Part shown: one piece after another, positions 34,255 through 64,000 of the stretch | How the letters are laid out: each line of letters begins with the position of its first letter | How positions within the stretch are numbered: position 1 is the stretch's first letter | Sequence record: MH494197.1 | Length of the DNA: 64,000 nucleotides | Reading direction: 5' to 3' (one strand) | From: Escherichia phage CMSTMSU | Notes under the pieces: model-generated | Told to the model about the DNA's origin: nothing | Database searches by the model: none | Seen by the model: the letters and a program-made list of their open reading frames with translations, nothing else | Translations under genes and position numbers: made by a program

Positions 34255-34282
34255 ATTATATCACATTCTTTGCGTTTGTCAA
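34255..34282 (-). promoter_or_regulatory. Strong sigma70-type promoter (TTGACA-16 nt-TATAAT with TGn extended -10), minus strand, upstream of ClpA-like gene
   Basis: Minus-strand TTGACAAACGCAAAGAATGTGATATAAT. Confidence 0.6.
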
Positions 34283-57971: not shown

Positions 57972-58899
57972 TTATACAGCCATTGGTGCTTTGATCGTTG
58001 GCATTGGATCGTAATTAACTAATTTGAAAGAATCCATAGTGAAATCTTCAATATCAGTAATAGTAGGATCTAACCATAATTCTGGTAATGTACGTGGTTC
58101 ACGTTGGAGTTGCTCTTTTACTTGTTCAATATGGTTTTGATAGATATGGCAGTCGCCACCATTCCAAATAAATTCACCAACATCTAACCCTGTAATTTGT
58201 GCAATCATATGAGTTAGTAGTGAGTAACTACTAATATTAAATGGCACACCAAGGAATAGATCAGCACTACGTTGATGAAGAATACAACTTAGTTTACCCT
58301 GTACAACACAAAACTGCACAAAGCTATGACAGGGTGGCAAAGTCATAGCATCAAGCTCACCAACGTTCCATGCACTTAGAATGTGACGACGACCATATGG
58401 ATCAGTATTGATACCTTCAATAACTTGTTTTAGCTGGTCAGTTACGACGCATAATAACACCATGTGAACCAGTATAATCAATAACTTTATACCCTTTATC
58501 TTTTAGTTCTTGAATTTCTTCAGTACTGGAACTGAATTTATAATCTTCCCATTCACGCCATTGTTTACCATAAACTGGGCCAAGCTCACCATCAGAATAC
58601 CCAAGGCTTACACCTTGATTAAGGTAGTTGTCTGTCCAAATTGTTTTCTTTTCTACATCACGTGTCCCGTGTAAAATTTCACACAGACGACGCTCATCGT
58701 GAGAACCTTCAATAAACCATAACAATTCTGAAGTCATTGCTTTCCAAGCTAAACGTTTAGTAGTTACTGCTGGGAAACCTTCTTTTAGGTCAAAACGCAT
58801 TTGTTGTCCGATTAGCTTGATAGTGCCAACACCAGTACGATCAACGCTTTCGACACCTTGATCCAGAATTCTTTGATATAGTTCTTGTAGTTGTTTCAT
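57972..58899 (-). CDS. td: Thymidylate synthase (ThyA/td), one frame break, no intron evident
   Basis: N-terminal half in ORF 58438..58962 ([31 protein letters not shown]), C-terminal half in 57972..58481 with active-site LPPCH; halves overlap at 58438..58481. Confidence 0.9.
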
Positions 58900-58900
58900 T

Positions 58901-59390
58901 TTACGTCCTTGAAAAATGTAATAAAGTGTTCCATGTGTTTTGTGTAGCATTACGTGAACCAATCCCAGTCCAGTTACCGTGTGGTGCTGGTATTGAGAAT
59001 GTTTCAGTAAACTCTTTCAGTACTGTATCATAATAAAATACAGAGCGAGTGTTCATATCATAACAATATATTTCTGGATTGTCAACTGAATCCATATACA
59101 TCTGTACGGCCCATGCAGTTCCACCTGAAACTTGCGTAGGTGATGTAATATTTGCAATACAATATACTCTTTTGTATTAAGTATCTGGTAACTATTCCTT
59201 GCAAGTAAGTTATATACATACGAACCGCTTAGGAACTTTACGGCGTAAAGAGTAACATGCAATGTTTAATTGTTTTAATATTGAACTATCACAAAGGATA
59301 TTGGGTGGAATTTCTAATATAGTATTTTCATCTACGCTGCTTTGGTGACCCTTGAATGAAAAATTTATTACTTCAAATCCATTGTCTTTT
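58901..59390 (-). CDS. Disrupted/uncertain coding region upstream of td (hypothetical)
   Basis: Only short ORF fragments (58901..59101, 59053..59262) in different frames; no recognisable motif. Confidence 0.25.
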
Positions 59391-60146: not shown

Positions 60147-60389
60147 TATTCTCCTTTATTTTGTTCAGCAGCAGCTTGTGCAGCATCAGCTTCTTCTTGT
60201 GCTTTGATATCTTCGAGTGCAGAGTTAGCAAACTCAACAAACTTAGATACGACTGGAGCAACATCAACAAGTTCTTCGACTTTAAATGAATTACGAGCCA
60301 CAGCAGCTTCCATGATTTTAGCAGCGTTGATTAGGTCGATTAGTGTTAGTTGAATTTTTCTGGTTCTTGTTCCATTTTAATACTCTCCA
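60147..60389 (-). CDS. Small acidic hypothetical protein
   Basis: MESIKMEQEPEKF...LIDLINAAKIMEAAVARNSFKVEEL...AEQNKGE with one homopolymer frame break; stop overlaps SD of downstream gene. Confidence 0.4.
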
Positions 60390-60475
60390 TGTATGTTGTT
60401 ACAAATATAATTATATCACCTTTTTCCAAGCTGTCCCGCTGAAAAAGTAGAAACGGAATTTTCCGTTCTCATTAT

Positions 60476-61889
60476 TTAGTACTTAGCTACGTTGACGCTT
60501 TTGTCAGCTTCATATTCGTAGTGTACAGTTTCGCCAAATGGTGCTTGTTTGTTAGGATTGCTGTGGATAACAAACAGTGTCTTACAGTAATCAGGATCAC
60601 CCCATGACTGCCACGGCTCACCATCGGTAAACATAATAAGCTGTTTAGGCTTATAGTTGTCATGCTTCATATGAACCCATACTGCTTCAAAGTCAGTACC
60701 ACCACCACCTTTCACTGGATATTCGAGAATCTTACTCTCTTCACCAGTTTTGTAATCTTTCACAGTATAAACTTCAGTATCGAACGTCATGATACGGATT
60801 TTAAATTGTTTAAACTGCTTAGTGATACCCAGTACTTCACTGATGAAATCACGGAGCATATCTTCAGAGATAGAACCGGATGCATCTAGTGCAATTGCAA
60901 TATCAATATCATCATCTGGTTTCATACCGGGAAGATTGGATTCCCGTAGAATGAACCAGAACTACCAAAACCAGCACCCCATGAACGACGATTAGGATTT
61001 TGATAAGTTGCATCAGACTTCAACCAGCTACGCAGTGTGCGGTGAAGTTTAGAACGCCAGTCAATCTTAGGTTCTTTGAAGTTGTTAATCATACGTGCGA
61101 TTTCAGCAGGAGTACCACCTGCACGAGCAGCATTCATCATTGCTGTTTTGAAATCATCCATATAATCACGTTTTTGTTTCTCACTTGAACCACCCTCTTG
61201 ACCTTCTTGTGGAACGTCATGCTGGTCGATTGTTGTACCTTTGCCTTTACCATCTTTGATATCACCAAAAGTACCGCGTGATTTACCTTCACCCTCACCA
61301 CTACCAGCCTGTGGATTTCCTTCACCTTCTCCGTCTTGATCCTGCTTATCTTCTTCTTCGAGAATATTATAAATCTCTTCAGCAGTCATACCATCGTACT
61401 TTTTATCGTACAGCCATTGGCTTTGGATTTTACCAATTTTATCACGAACAAGAATCTGGTTAATTGCATAGTCAGCAGCACGGTTATAACGCTGCGGGTC
61501 ACGCATACCACGACGCAAGAAGTGGTCATATGCACAGTGAAGAATTTCATGACAAATAACTGCAATCAGGTTTTCATCAGTCAAACCTTCTGTCATTTCT
61601 TTAAGTTGTTCTTCAGTTACTTCAGGATGTTTCTCACGAATTGCTTCTTCGTATGCTGACTTTTGGATTGGTCCTGAATACCCATGATGAATTCTACGTT
61701 GTAGAATAAATGCTTACCATCTACAGCCAAAGTACGACACCATGTGTTGTTTGCAACTGGACGCAGACGAGAAGCCAGTACACCAAAGAATGGGAATGTT
61801 AGCATTAAAGATGTGCGAGCTAAGATCAGACGATCTTGACATTCTTTCTGGAGAGCCGGAGTAACATCACTGAAACGTTTATCTGACAT
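60476..61889 (-). CDS. Two-domain protein: N-terminal HExxH metallopeptidase-like domain plus C-terminal VWA-like domain with MIDAS DxSGS; frame-broken
   Basis: ICHEILHCAYDH in ORF 60922..61596; ALDASGSI and Gly-rich GGGGTD in ORF 60476..60925; N-terminal piece 61617..61889. Confidence 0.6.
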
Positions 61890-61962
61890 TTGTATTTCCT
61901 CGTTTAGTTAAGATAAAGAAGGATACCATGTGGTATCCTCCTTGTCAACACTCTTTTAATTA

Positions 61963-63288
61963 TTAACCAAGAGAGCGTGCTTTACGTACTAGGTCAGAGT
62001 ACTTCATAACGAAGTCTTTAAACGCTGGTACATCTTTAATCGTAATCGCTACTTTATGAAGCGTGATGGTACGAATCGCCAGTACTGCCAGTTCTGCTTG
62101 AGTTGCAGAGAAGTTATGGTCTAGGAAGGTGATGAAGTTGTTGCACAGCTTACCCCAATCTTCCACTGGTAGACGTTGTTCTTGCTTCTCATTGTAGAGG
62201 TCGATAATTTTGTAAACCAGATTCAGAGTGATGAAGTAGTTCGCGGAAATATCGAGCGAAGCATCAATCTCTTTAATCTCACCCTGTAGGATGGACATGG
62301 TATCTGGTAGTTTAGCTACGTTATCAACATACTCGATGTATTCAGTTGCTACGCCTTCACCAACACGACCTGCAATCATCGCACGGAACACTTCTTTATC
62401 AATGTTCTTAACTTTCTTCAGATCTTCGTAGCGTGCTACTGCTTCCCATGAACGTGGAGAAGTACCACCACAGTGAGAAGGATCTTGTGGGCTAAGGGTG
62501 TTGAAGTGTTTAGCACCAGTGTTGTTGATGAACGCTACAGTTGCTGGGTTCAAACGCTTGCCAATCGCATAATCGTTAATCCAATCTTGATGATAAGGAA
62601 TCATTTCGATGTGGGTCATACGGTCACGCAGTGGTGTAGCTAGAGAGAACGTTACACCGCCATCAGTTTCACGGTTACCTGCTGCGAGAATCAGTGCAGT
62701 CTTAGGTAGCTTCATCTCACCAACACAACGGTCGAGGATTAGCTGATAAGACGCTGCCTGTACAATCGGCATTGCAGAGTTGATTTCGTCAAACAGAATA
62801 ACACCTTTCCAATCTGGAGACAGTTTCAGTACTTTAGGTGCTGCCCACACAACTGCTGTTTCAGCGATGTAATCTTGTGCACTAGCCAGTTCAGATTCAA
62901 TCAGTTGCTTACCATCCATATCAAGGAACACTTTCTCTGGAACTGGGATACCACGAAGGTCACTTGGTTCAATCTGAGACAAACGGAAATCGATAAAGTT
63001 AGTGTCTTGGTCGATTAGTTTGGCTTCAAACGCTGCCAGTTCACGGCGAAGTTGATCAGCATTTTCAGTATCAGCTTCGATTTGTTGTTTCATGAACTCA
63101 ATTTTGCCACGTTATCTTTACGCAGTGGGTAGTTCTCATCAGCGTATTGACGTGCGATAGCAGATTTACCGATACGGGCTACCCCAAATCATCAGGCTAT
63201 CTTGAATCATGTCAGCCAGTGCCATTGCTTCTTTAGCTTTCTTAGGAGTCAGTTTTACGTTCAGGATATCGTTGTTTTGAGTAGACAT
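61963..63288 (-). CDS. AAA+ ATPase of MoxR/CobS type, partner of the VWA protein; frame-broken near N-terminus
   Basis: Walker B ILFDEIN, sensor region LILAAGNRETDGG in ORF 61963..63093; Walker A-like IGKSAIARQYA in upstream frame; AAAGGAAA SD before ATG 63288. Confidence 0.7.
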
Positions 63289-63455
63289 GTATATTTTCCT
63301 TTTGTTGGATAAAATCGTTTAGGTTTCTATTATAGCCAATCCGTGGGCAAAGTAAAGGAACTGTGTTAAAAGAATTTTAACTTATCAGTTCCTTTGTTAC
63401 TTCATGAATCATCCGTGTATTTAAAAGGCATTTCTCTTTGCCGTCTTGATGTGTC

Positions 63456-63483
63456 ATTATATCACATCGTTCAGGCTTGTCAA
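63456..63483 (-). promoter_or_regulatory. Strong sigma70-type promoter (TTGACA-16 nt-TATAAT, TGn extended -10), minus strand
   Basis: Minus-strand TTGACAAGCCTGAACGATGTGATATAAT. Confidence 0.6.
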
Positions 63484-63546
63484 CAACTTTTTTATTTCTT
63501 TTCAATCTCACATCTTGTGATTTTGAAAACTTGCTTCGTGGTGGTC

Positions 63547-63574
63547 ATTATAACACATCATTCGGCGTTGTCAA
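63547..63574 (-). promoter_or_regulatory. Second tandem sigma70-type promoter (TTGACA-16 nt-TATAAT), minus strand
   Basis: Minus-strand TTGACAACGCCGAATGATGTGTTATAAT; about 90 bp direct repeat of 63456..63483 unit. Confidence 0.6.
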
Positions 63575-63597
63575 CATCTTTTTCTTTATTTTCGAAG

Positions 63598-63974
63598 CTA
63601 CATGTGCATCGAAAATAACATTCTAAAATCATCACCACACAATGTTAACTCTGTAACTATCATTTGCGTCGAGAGGTATATGTACTGCCCTTCTACATAG
63701 TAGGGTGAAGTACATATCCTATCAAGCGATGTAAAGATTATAGAACTTTTGAACTCTCTTTGCAAGGGGATTTTTGTAAATTCGTAAAGAATGTTTTCTT
63801 TACAAATTGTATATCCAAACTTGCTAAGTCTTAAACCACCGCCAGTTCTGAAATTTTCAAAATTGACATCAGAAGCATACGGTCTGTTAATTCAGCGTCT
63901 GATCCATGTACTTCTCTAACTTTTAAAAGTACATCGTTTTGAAATTCAGTACTGTTGTGTGGTTCAGGAATCAT
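63598..63974 (-). CDS. Hypothetical small protein at window edge (frame-broken)
   Basis: MIPEPHNSTEFQNDVLLKVREVHGSDAELTDRML...; weak SD; one frame break. Confidence 0.3.
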
Positions 63975-64000
63975 AAATTACATCCCCACGAAACCCTGTC

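What the first reader, a model, noticed from the sequence alone, without database searches (positions are those of the whole stretch)
60476..63574. MoxR/CobS-like AAA+ ATPase plus HExxH-VWA protein module driven by tandem consensus promoters
Adjacent minus-strand genes encode an AAA+ ATPase (ILFDEIN Walker B) and a protein combining an HExxH metallopeptidase-like N-domain with a VWA/MIDAS C-domain. This is the ATPase-plus-VWA architecture of MoxR/CobS-CobT-type modules, whose role in phages is unresolved. Two directly repeated TTGACA-16-TATAAT promoters lie just upstream.
Basis: partly seen in the sequence, partly recalled or inferred. Interest (0 to 1): 0.7.

Follow-up and report, generated by a model that had tools for sequence, protein, structure and literature searches.

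The report
Phage MoxR ATPase plus VWA-metallopeptidase operon
This is an ordinary copy, broken only by sequencing errors, of a widespread and already described two-gene phage operon (a MoxR-type AAA+ ATPase and a zinc-peptidase/VWA fusion protein) whose job is still unproven but now looks more like attacking host proteins than building virions.

Summary
The window is an Asteriusvirus jumbo coliphage, 99.1% identical to phage WPEC3. On the minus strand it carries a 442-aa AAA+ ATPase (Walker A GSPGIGKS, Walker B ILFDEIN). Next comes a 469-aa protein with an HExxH domain (Pfam DUF2201_N, E 3e-36) and a VWA domain with a complete MIDAS motif (DUF2201, E 1e-21). Both genes look fragmented only because of three single- or two-base deletions each. 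These are homopolymer shortenings and CCAGG errors typical of uncorrected nanopore reads. After correction the ATPase is identical to WPEC3's and the VWA protein differs by one residue.

Two perfect TTGACA-16-TATAAT promoters with a TG extension lie in a 56-nt direct repeat upstream. A conserved terminator-like hairpin sits between them and the ATPase start codon.

The ATPase is MoxR-like by fold. CobS/CobT membership is not supported. The module is the N4 gp24/gp25 family, and Iyer et al. described it in jumbo phages in 2021. In 79 of 79 assessable viral loci the ATPase lies directly upstream of the peptidase gene.

A 2025 preprint shows both homologues are dispensable in phage Bas54 on E. 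coli K-12 but needed on one clinical isolate. That favours a counter-defence role over virion assembly. Verdict: already known, modest interest.

The parts
63547..63574 (-). Promoter P2 (distal): TTGACA-16-TATAAT with TG extension and an A/T-rich upstream tract
   Evidence: 12/12 consensus. Exact-pattern search. Conserved as TTGACA-16-TACAAT in phage 121Q.
63456..63483 (-). Promoter P1 (proximal): TTGACA-16-TATAAT with TG extension
   Evidence: Conserved in WPEC3, 121Q and Klebsiella phage RCIP0023. An extended -10 is kept at the same place in Salmonella phage Munch and Serratia phage BF.
63453..63599 (.). Two copies of a 56-nt direct repeat (63453-63508 and 63544-63599), each holding one promoter
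   Evidence: the repeat finder family D1: 77% identity, 91-nt spacing.
63346..63395 (-). Leader hairpin followed by a U-rich tract (terminator- or attenuator-like), lying between P1 and the ATPase start codon
   Evidence: Folds at -15.8 kcal/mol, z -3.9, 0 of 200 shuffles as good. Present at the same position, with changed stem sequences, in 121Q, RCIP0023, Munch and BF. Function not tested.
63329..63356 (-). Weak third promoter-like site, TTTACT-16-TATAAT, overlapping the 3' arm and tail of the hairpin
   Evidence: 10/12 match. The -10 hexamer is conserved only within Asteriusvirus.
61963..63288 (-). MoxR-type AAA+ ATPase gene (442 aa when corrected). Artefactual frame breaks at window 63175 (2-nt deletion inside the Walker A codons, at a CCAGG site) and 63101 (T5->T4)
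61910..61943 (-). Stable hairpin with a U-rich tail between the ATPase stop codon and the peptidase-VWA start codon
   Evidence: -18.8 kcal/mol, z -4.9. A hairpin is present at this position in all six Rak2-like phages compared, with different sequences. Annotated as 'terminator' in phage Munch.
60483..61889 (-). Zincin-like metallopeptidase (DUF2201_N) fused to a VWA/MIDAS domain (DUF2201), 469 aa when corrected. Artefactual frame breaks at window 61660, 60928 (CCAGG site) and 60498
60441..60470 (-). Intrinsic-terminator-like hairpin plus T-run, closing the two-gene unit
   Evidence: Listed by the terminator scan. Intact 9-bp stem in WPEC3 and 121Q; equivalent terminators in RCIP0023, Munch and BF. 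The window copy is weakened by a sequencing deletion.

Best explanation
What it is (shown). The region is an intact two-gene operon of an Asteriusvirus jumbo coliphage, made to look fragmented by nanopore-type indels. Gene 1 encodes a MoxR-class AAA+ ATPase. Gene 2 encodes a zincin-type HExxH metallopeptidase domain joined by an acidic, glycine-rich linker to a VWA domain with a complete MIDAS metal site. It belongs to the N4 gp24/gp25 family (PHROG 1297 and 1314; Pfam DUF2201_N + DUF2201). This family is found in many virulent phage lineages and on conjugative plasmids.

How it most likely works (inferred from characterised MoxR-VWA pairs such as RavA-ViaA, CbbQ-CbbO, NorQ-NorD and Rea1/Midasin):
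1. The ATPase forms a hexameric ring that docks the VWA protein.
2. The MIDAS site captures an acidic residue of a specific target protein.
3. ATP hydrolysis remodels the bound target, and perhaps also an auto-inhibited peptidase.
4. The fused peptidase then cleaves the target.

Likely target and timing (inferred). The genes are probably transcribed early or in the middle of infection by host sigma-70 RNA polymerase from the tandem promoters, with read-through of a leader hairpin. The most likely target is a host protein, such as a defence or other host-specific factor, rather than a virion component. On this reading the module is an accessory counter-defence or host-takeover device.

The confidence given (0.5) is for the whole statement including the host-directed role. 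The identity of the two genes on its own is near certain.
For: Identity
- Domain, motif and fold results.
- Indels are artefacts: every indel is a homopolymer or CCAGG deletion, 9 of 10 substitutions within the two genes are synonymous, and the corrected proteins match WPEC3.

The two genes work together
- In 79 of 80 IMG/VR loci the ATPase lies directly upstream on the same strand. The one exception has only 68 nt of contig upstream.
- Counts by genus are nearly identical in 808 versus 724 phage records.
- The pair is kept at 32% identity in a 481-kb and a 125-kb phage contig.

Early or middle expression
- Consensus sigma-70 promoters with an UP-like tract.
- The same promoter class is read as early in the relative phage CBB (PMC5259590).
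- N4 gp24/gp25 are middle genes (PMC4193335).

Host-directed, accessory role
- HIDEN-SEQ preprint 10.1101/2025.11.20.689424. In Vequintavirus Bas54 the homologous ATPase (24% identity, E 8e-33 to ours) and the DUF2201 metallopeptidase are both non-essential on K-12 (60/64 and 81/86 TA sites hit).
- Both are depleted on clinical isolate CFE311: log2FC -7.23, q = 0, and log2FC -2.20, q = 0.009.
- The ATPase knockout is sensitive to the cloned two-gene system DS-28.

Presence on other incoming mobile elements
- 82 plasmid records, 30 of them conjugative. The pair sits next to type IV secretion genes, or next to an orphan cytosine methyltransferase and an addiction toxin.
Against: - No biochemical data exist for any member. 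Peptidase activity, hexamer formation and the ATPase-VWA contact are all inferred.
- The functional data come from a homologue only 24-29% identical, in a different phage family. There the two genes are 3.6 kb apart on opposite strands.
- The peptidase gene shows a much weaker phenotype than the ATPase gene.
- The authors name the ATPase and an unrelated gene (bas54_0140), not the peptidase, as the anti-DS-28 factors.
- In the Rak2-like phages the operon directly follows a structural-gene cluster.
- The ATPase was detected in phAPEC6 virion mass spectrometry with 6 peptides and 19% coverage. This fits a morphogenetic role or packaging into the virion.
- gp24/gp25 are core genes of all N4-like phages, which is unusual for accessory anti-defence genes.
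- No PADLOC match. That library covers defence systems, not anti-defence genes, so this is uninformative.
Confidence: 0.5

Rival explanations
1. Virion-assembly chaperone with a processing peptidase, as proposed by Iyer et al. 2021. The MoxR-VWA pair would fold or assemble tail or head components, as proteins p618 and p892 do for the tails of the archaeal virus ATV. The fused peptidase would trim structural proteins during maturation.
For: - Explicit published proposal for this module in 'group 2.2' jumbo phages (PMC7824862).
- In all Rak2-like phages the operon immediately follows a block of virion structural genes on the same strand.
- The ATPase gp265c is listed among phAPEC6 virion-associated proteins.
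- Core-gene status in N4-like phages.
Against: - Both homologues tolerate transposon disruption in Bas54 with normal propagation on K-12.
- The operon has its own host-type consensus promoters and is separated from the structural genes by them.
- In other phages the pair lies among replication or nucleotide-metabolism genes: next to helicase and DNA polymerase in LUZ7, and next to 5'-3' exonuclease, Macro and Metallophos genes in L003 and L004.
- The pair also occurs on conjugative plasmids, which build no virions.
- The phAPEC6 mass-spectrometry list also contains thymidylate synthase, so it includes non-structural carry-over. The VWA-peptidase is absent from it.
Confidence: 0.2
2. A factor for replication or genome establishment of incoming DNA. 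This could be removal of proteins bound or cross-linked to DNA, or remodelling of a replication or transcription complex. The analogy is a zinc protease working with an AAA+ unfoldase, as Wss1/SPRTN works with Cdc48/p97.
For: - In N4-like phages the pair is embedded in the middle (replication) gene block, next to helicase and DNA polymerase.
- In this window, DprA-like and thymidylate synthase genes lie just downstream.
- It is present on conjugative plasmids as well as phages, that is, on elements that must establish newly entered DNA.
Against: - No DNA-binding domain was detected.
- The nearest sequence relatives of the peptidase domain are M48/minigluzincin proteins (MJ1213, Ste24, HtpX, BepA), not SprT/Wss1.
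- Non-essential on K-12 in Bas54.
Confidence: 0.1
3. A CobS/CobT- or BchI/BchD-type metal chelatase or cofactor-insertion module, the alternative the first reader named.
For: - General AAA+ plus VWA architecture.
- A weak Mg_chelatase Pfam hit over the P-loop only (E 0.007, below threshold).
Against: - No CobS, CobT, CbbQ_C or chelatase-specific family hit for either protein.
- The VWA partner carries a conserved HExxH peptidase domain, which is not a feature of CobT or BchD.
- No cobalamin or tetrapyrrole genes nearby.
- A host-specific phenotype in Bas54 is not expected of a chelatase.
Confidence: 0.03
4. The frameshifts are real, and the module is a decaying pseudogene pair in this particular isolate.
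For: Both genes are interrupted three times in the window as given.
Against: - Every interruption is a 1-2-nt deletion in a homopolymer run or at a CCAGG Dcm site. The same error types occur equally in the flanking non-coding DNA (14 further indels) and in thyA.
- Nine of the ten substitutions in the two genes are synonymous.
- Nine deposited genomes that are 98-99% identical have both genes intact.
Confidence: 0.02

Closest known systems
Coliphage N4 gp24 / gp25 (and the 'N4 gp24-like' / 'N4 gp25-like' proteins of Schitoviridae)
   Same: Same two protein families, an ATPase followed by a DUF2201_N+DUF2201 protein, close together on the same strand. tblastn links our proteins to LUZ7 'N4 gp24-like' (E 7e-16) and 'N4 gp25-like' (E 2e-24). 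phAPEC6 annotates its orthologue as 'N4 gp25-like'. Function is unknown in both.
   Different: Identity is only about 25-28%. The N4-like ATPase is about 100 aa shorter: it lacks the helical insertion after Walker A and has a smaller beta-hairpin. In LUZ7 one small ORF separates the two genes and the neighbours are replication genes. N4 transcribes them with its own middle RNA polymerase rather than from sigma-70 consensus promoters.
MoxR AAA+ / vWA-metallopeptidase pair of 'group 2.2' jumbo phages (Iyer, Anantharaman, Krishnan, Burroughs & Aravind, Viruses 2021)
   Same: This is the same module. The paper describes a MoxR ATPase plus a vWA co-chaperone fused to an N-terminal metallopeptidase in T4-related jumbo phages.
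   Different: Nothing structural. The paper's functional proposal (virion assembly and processing of structural proteins) fits poorly with the later transposon data and with the plasmid-borne copies.
Vequintavirus Bas54 genes bas54_0063 (MoxR ATPase) and bas54_0055 (putative metallopeptidase)
   Same: Homologous proteins (ATPase 24% identity, E 8e-33; peptidase about 28%, E about 1e-35). These are the only members with genetic data: both are dispensable on K-12 and both are needed on isolate CFE311. The ATPase is needed against DS-28.
   Different: The genes are not adjacent (3.6 kb apart, on opposite strands). The peptidase phenotype is much weaker than the ATPase phenotype. The ATPase has no coiled-coil insertion.
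Cellular MoxR-VWA chaperone pairs (RavA-ViaA, CbbQ-CbbO, NorQ-NorD, CoxD-CoxE)
   Different: In those systems the VWA partner has no peptidase domain and the outcome is remodelling or cofactor insertion, not cleavage. Sequence similarity is too low for direct Pfam assignment of our ATPase: AAA_3 scores 17.9 bits against a threshold of 27.
Acidianus two-tailed virus p618 (MoxR) / p892 (VWA)
   Same: A virus-encoded MoxR plus VWA pair. It is the published precedent for a viral role in tail development (cited).
   Different: It is an archaeal virus and p892 has no peptidase domain (per PMC7824862). It was not compared by sequence here.

Membership tests
MoxR-class AAA+ ATPases | Walker A (GxxGxGK[ST]) and Walker B (hhhhDE) motifs | tested here: met
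   GSPGIGKS and ILFDEIN. G36, G39, K42, S43, D168 and E169 are invariant in 24 homologues.
MoxR-class AAA+ ATPases | Sensor 1 Asn, arginine finger and sensor 2 Arg in the MoxR-typical contexts (AAGN, ...DR[FM], SPR) | tested here: met
   AAGN206-R207, PLRDR224M and SPR280SW are invariant in alignment A2. The functional assignment of each residue is by analogy.
MoxR-class AAA+ ATPases | Helix-2 insert and pre-sensor-1 beta-hairpin (AAA+ clade 7) | tested here: inconclusive
   The AF2 model (pLDDT 81.5) shows a long beta-hairpin at 115-150 between beta2 and Walker B. It also shows a short EE--EE hairpin at about 189-194 before beta4. Model coordinates could not be inspected.
MoxR-class AAA+ ATPases | Match to the Pfam MoxR-type models (AAA_3 / AAA_5) above the gathering threshold | tested here: not met
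   AAA_3 scores 17.9 bits (threshold 27) and AAA_5 scores 15.5 (threshold 22). Relatives at 32-34% identity (E about 1e-53) do carry precomputed AAA_3, AAA_5 and bpMoxR hits. Membership is therefore transitive, not direct.
MoxR-class AAA+ ATPases | Closest solved folds are MoxR proteins | tested here: met
MoxR-class AAA+ ATPases | Genomic coupling to a VWA-domain protein | tested here: met
   Adjacent in the window. 79 of 79 assessable viral loci have the ATPase directly upstream.
DUF2201_N + DUF2201 ('predicted metal-dependent peptidase' / VWA-like) family | Both Pfam domains above threshold, in N-to-C order | tested here: met
   PF13203 at 125.8 bits (threshold 23.2) and PF09967 at 77.8 bits (threshold 26.4).
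DUF2201_N + DUF2201 ('predicted metal-dependent peptidase' / VWA-like) family | Intact HExxH zinc-binding and catalytic motif | tested here: met
   H114-E-I-L-H118-C-A-Y-D-H123 in the corrected window protein. H, E, H, C and H are invariant in 27 sequences. Catalysis itself was not tested.
DUF2201_N + DUF2201 ('predicted metal-dependent peptidase' / VWA-like) family | VWA fold with a complete MIDAS motif (DxSxS...T...D) | tested here: met
CobS/CobT cobaltochelatase | Match to CobS / CobT family models, and a VWA partner of CobT type | tested here: not met
   No CobS, CobT or CbbQ_C hit even at E <= 1. The partner carries a peptidase domain instead. There is no cobalamin gene context.
HNH endonuclease (the name most database records give the VWA-peptidase gene) | HNH / His-Me finger domain | tested here: not met
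   No HNH family hit in Pfam. The label comes from the PHROG 1314 annotation and is a mis-annotation.
Phage counter-defence factor (anti-DS-28) | Loss of the gene sensitises the phage to a defined defence system | not testable with these tools
   Shown only for the Bas54 ATPase homologue in a preprint. Nothing is known for Asteriusvirus.

The most novel reading that the evidence does not exclude
The MoxR-ATPase / VWA-zincin pair could be a new mechanistic class of anti-defence device carried by incoming mobile DNA, both phages and conjugative plasmids. It would be an ATP-powered, MIDAS-targeted 'degrader' that recognises a host immune protein (DS-28 or others), pulls it apart and cleaves it. 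In Asteriusvirus its dose would be set by tandem early promoters feeding into a conserved leader attenuator.
Probability: 0.3. Interest if true: 0.75.

Novelty: already known. Interest (0 to 1): 0.3.

Why it matters
The family is very large. A profile search finds 24,572 cluster representatives at 50% identity. It is a core gene pair of N4-like phages and is present in more than 700 sequenced phages and on conjugative plasmids. No member has a demonstrated biochemical function.

If the pair is a targeted, ATP-dependent protease directed at host immunity, it would add a new mechanism to the anti-defence repertoire. It would also explain a long-unassigned core gene pair. This window adds no new information to that question. 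It is a sequencing-error-laden copy of genes already deposited intact.

The practical lessons are threefold:
- The apparent pseudogenes are artefacts.
- The widespread 'HNH endonuclease' label is wrong.
- The published virion-assembly hypothesis now faces contrary genetic evidence.

Tried and rejected
- NCBIfam and PADLOC scans of both corrected proteins found nothing meaningful.
- Sequence search of both proteins against PDB chains gave only chance-level hits.
- Two fold searches with the full-length VWA-peptidase model were swamped by VWA hits, so they gave no fold assignment for the N-terminal domain. A profile of the N-domain alone gave only weak links to M48/minigluzincin proteins, best E 0.009.
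- An Rfam scan of 60300-64000 found no known RNA family for the leader or intergenic hairpins.
- I looked for a third conserved component. The 109-aa gene downstream in WPEC3 is unrelated to the 109-aa gene downstream in L004. The 'anti-sigma factor' upstream of the Vequintavirus peptidase is unrelated to our ATPase and to the conserved ~300-aa plasmid gene. Flanking genes have no informative Pfam domains.
- A literature search for 'DUF2201' returned nothing relevant. The PA5oct omics paper, the phiKZ Tn-seq paper and a second phage transposon preprint do not mention the module. 'DS-28' is not characterised anywhere in the library.
- The small ORFs called between the promoters and the ATPase (for example WPEC3 CDS412) were rejected as genes. 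CDS412 starts inside the -10 hexamer of P2, and its reading frame is not conserved in 121Q.
Full report
**Provenance and sequence quality.** Window 60300-63700 is 99.1% identical over its whole length to Escherichia phages WPEC3, WPEC5, EC.P1, fEgEco12 and Ecwhy_1. It is 86.6% identical to 121Q, PBECO4 and phAPEC6. These are jumbo myoviruses of the genus Asteriusvirus, and the fEgEco12/Ecwhy_1 cluster was recently proposed as a new species (PMC13070987).

A base-by-base alignment with WPEC3 shows 10 substitutions and 20 indels. Nineteen of the indels are deletions in the window. Almost all shorten a homopolymer (T5->T4, A6->A5, T7->T5). Two hit CCAGG sites (CCAGG->CCGG and CCAGG->CGG). This is the signature of uncorrected nanopore consensus, with errors at Dcm-methylated motifs. 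Deletions are as common in the non-coding flanks as in the genes, and the neighbouring thymidylate synthase gene is also split.

When the deletions are filled in, both genes are open. The ATPase is identical to WPEC3's. The second protein differs at one residue (D237E), and 9 of 10 substitutions are synonymous. The 'pseudogene' appearance is therefore an artefact. The true genes are about 61963-63288 and about 60483-61889, both on the minus strand.

**The ATPase.** The corrected 442-aa protein has Walker A GSPGIGKS and Walker B ILFDEIN. In an alignment of 24 homologues reaching down to 35% identity, several motifs are invariant: the P-loop, the DE of Walker B, AAGN-R (sensor 1 plus an adjacent arginine), PL.DR, and SPR.W (sensor 2).

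Direct Pfam matches are weak and sub-threshold: AAA 21.5 bits, AAA_3 17.9, AAA_5 15.5. However, relatives at 32-34% identity (E about 1e-53) carry precomputed AAA_3, AAA_5 and bpMoxR hits, and source databases name close relatives 'MoxR-like ATPase'. PHROG 1297 ('ATPase') matches at 3e-105.

**The peptidase-VWA protein.** The corrected 469-aa protein matches DUF2201_N ('putative metallopeptidase', 3e-36) and DUF2201 ('VWA-like', 1e-21). Across 27 homologues the HExxHCxxxH motif is invariant. So are the complete MIDAS set (DxSGS, the GGGT threonine, the FTDG aspartate) and a short D-x-H element just after the acidic, glycine-rich linker.

Most database records call this gene 'HNH endonuclease', a name inherited from PHROG 1314. 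No HNH domain is present. The family is enormous: 24,572 cluster representatives at 50% identity with E <= 1e-3, and 6,326 at E <= 1e-30.

**The two genes are a unit.** In 80 IMG/VR loci chosen only for encoding a relative of the peptidase-VWA protein (37-98% identity), 79 have the ATPase directly upstream on the same strand. The gap is 18-221 nt in 77 of them. The single exception has just 68 nt of contig upstream. The pair is also adjacent in a 481-kb and a 125-kb metagenomic phage contig whose ATPase is only 32% identical.

Across GenBank phages, the ATPase is found in 808 records and the VWA protein in 724, with nearly identical counts per host genus. The lineages include Rak2-like jumbo phages, PA5oct, Atu_ph07, phage G, Vequintavirinae and N4-like podoviruses. 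In LUZ7 the two homologues are annotated 'N4 gp24-like' and 'N4 gp25-like'. gp24 and gp25 are two of the 14 core genes of N4-like phages and are middle genes in N4 (PMC4193335).

The same pair occurs on 82 plasmids, 30 of them conjugative and mostly from Burkholderiaceae. There a conserved ~300-aa gene sits between the two, and the neighbours are type IV secretion genes, or an orphan cytosine methyltransferase and an addiction toxin.

**Transcription signals.** Both promoters are perfect 12/12 sigma-70 matches with a 16-nt spacer and a TGn extension. Each lies in one copy of a 56-nt direct repeat that also includes an A/T-rich upstream tract. The window has four perfect matches against 0.18 expected.

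Three of those four share a longer motif, TTGACAA-N9-(G/A)ATGTG(A/T)TATAAT. The third, at 34282-34255, drives a 762-aa ClpA/ClpB-type double AAA+ protein. The tandem arrangement is kept in 121Q. Klebsiella phage RCIP0023 has a single copy, and phages Munch and BF keep an extended -10 at the same place. In the relative phage CBB, RpoD-like promoters with UP-like elements are interpreted as early promoters (PMC5259590).

Between P1 and the ATPase start codon lies a stable hairpin followed by a U-rich tract (63395-63346; z -3.9). It is conserved in position, with altered stem sequences, in all five relatives examined. It could terminate or attenuate transcription from P1 and P2, and also read-through from the upstream late operon. 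A weaker promoter-like site overlaps its 3' side.

A second conserved hairpin separates the two genes (z -4.9) and is annotated as a terminator in phage Munch. A terminator follows the second gene. None of this has been tested experimentally, and Rfam knows none of these elements.

[quoted passage not shown] A role in virion assembly and peptidolytic processing was proposed by analogy with ATV p618/p892 (PMC7824862).

Three observations support that view:
- the position next to structural genes;
- detection of the ATPase, but not the peptidase, in phAPEC6 virion mass spectrometry, on a list that also contains thymidylate synthase;
- core-gene status in N4-like phages.

Four observations weigh against it:
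- the operon's own host-type early promoters;
- its location among replication genes in other phages;
- its presence on plasmids;
- above all, the genetics from a 2025 preprint (10.1101/2025.11.20.689424).

In Vequintavirus Bas54, the homologous ATPase (bas54_0063) and the DUF2201 metallopeptidase (bas54_0055) are both classed non-essential on K-12, with 60/64 and 81/86 TA sites disrupted. Both are significantly depleted on clinical isolate CFE311 (log2FC -7.23, q = 0, and -2.20, q = 0.009). A neighbouring gene is unaffected. The ATPase knockout is sensitive to the cloned two-gene candidate system DS-28.

I therefore rank a host-directed, conditionally required role first: MIDAS-mediated capture, ATP-driven remodelling and zincin cleavage of a host protein. 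I rank the assembly model second. All mechanistic steps are inferred from characterised MoxR-VWA systems. The functional evidence comes from a homologue 24-29% identical, with a different gene arrangement. The peptidase gene shows a weaker effect than the ATPase gene, so the two may not be strictly co-dependent.

**Verdict.** The exceptions are the CobS/CobT label and the unqualified 'driven by'. The feature is already known and this copy adds nothing new, so interest is modest. The open question is the biochemical role of a very large, mobile-element-associated family, and it is now experimentally approachable.

Noticed in passing
window 60300-63700 (e.g. 60928, 63175, 63101, 61660, 60498); also thyA at 57972-58962: Systematic 1-2-nt deletions relative to WPEC3. 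They shorten homopolymer runs or hit CCAGG (Dcm) sites, which is typical of uncorrected nanopore consensus. They fragment several genes in the window, not just these two.
   Followed up: yes
window 63346-63395 (minus strand): Conserved terminator-like hairpin with a U-rich tract, in the leader between the tandem promoters and the ATPase start codon. It is present with changed stem sequences in 121Q, RCIP0023, Munch and BF. It could make the promoters produce mainly a short leader RNA, or attenuate the operon. No Rfam match.
   Followed up: partly
window 61910-61943 (minus strand): Very stable 12-bp hairpin (z -4.9) between the ATPase and peptidase-VWA genes. A hairpin is present at this position in all six Rak2-like phages compared, and it is annotated 'terminator' in phage Munch. 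It may set the ratio of the two proteins.
   Followed up: partly
window 34255-34282 (minus strand), with the downstream gene starting at about 34216: A third promoter of the same extended type (TTGACAA-N9-GAATGTGATATAAT) drives a 762-aa ClpA/ClpB-type double-ring AAA+ protein, annotated 'ATP-dependent protease' in WPEC3. That gene is wedged between virion structural genes. All three same-type consensus promoters in the window therefore serve AAA+ protein-remodelling genes.
   Followed up: partly
L013 4930-8200 and L014 416-7152 (conjugative plasmids of Burkholderia cenocepacia and Simplicispira suum): The same ATPase / DUF2201 pair occurs on 82 plasmids, many of them MOBH conjugative. A conserved ~300-aa gene of unknown function sits immediately upstream of the VWA-peptidase gene (39% identity between the two plasmids). 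The neighbours are type IV secretion genes, or an orphan cytosine methyltransferase and an addiction toxin.
   Followed up: partly
database annotations of the gene at window 60483-61889: Most GenBank records and PHROG 1314 call this protein 'HNH endonuclease'. Others call it 'Zn-dependent hydrolase (T4-gp25-like)', 'gp25-like protein' or 'transcriptional regulator HdfR'. No HNH domain is present. The 'gp25' refers to phage N4, not T4.
   Followed up: yes
alignments A1 (columns about 140-180) and A2 (columns about 90-200): The jumbo-phage clade has a ~40-residue insertion before the HExxH helix of the peptidase, and a ~40-residue helical insertion plus an enlarged hairpin in the ATPase. In the 80 viral loci the long ATPase (about 1.32 kb) is found only in the ten jumbo-type loci. 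The two insertions might contact each other. Vequintavirus has the peptidase insertion without the ATPase one.
   Followed up: no
residues about 223-225 of the corrected VWA-peptidase protein (D227/H229 in P0001 numbering): An invariant D-x-H element directly after the disordered acidic, glycine-rich linker. The AF2 model shows isolated beta-bridges there. It could be an auto-inhibitory or self-cleavage segment lying in the active-site cleft. The model coordinates could not be inspected.
   Followed up: no
phAPEC6 gp265c, the orthologue of the window ATPase (PMC7247149): The ATPase was detected in purified phAPEC6 virions (6 peptides, 19% coverage), while the VWA-peptidase gp264c was not. Thymidylate synthase is on the same list, so this may be carry-over rather than true packaging.
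   Followed up: partly
supplementary Extended Data Table 8 of preprint 10.1101/2025.11.20.689424: The sheets labelled 'K-12 vs CFE303' (S6) and 'K-12 vs CFE311' (S7) carry the same table, and both console lines name the 311 library. The values I quote therefore refer to CFE311, and the CFE303 comparison is not actually available.
   Followed up: yes
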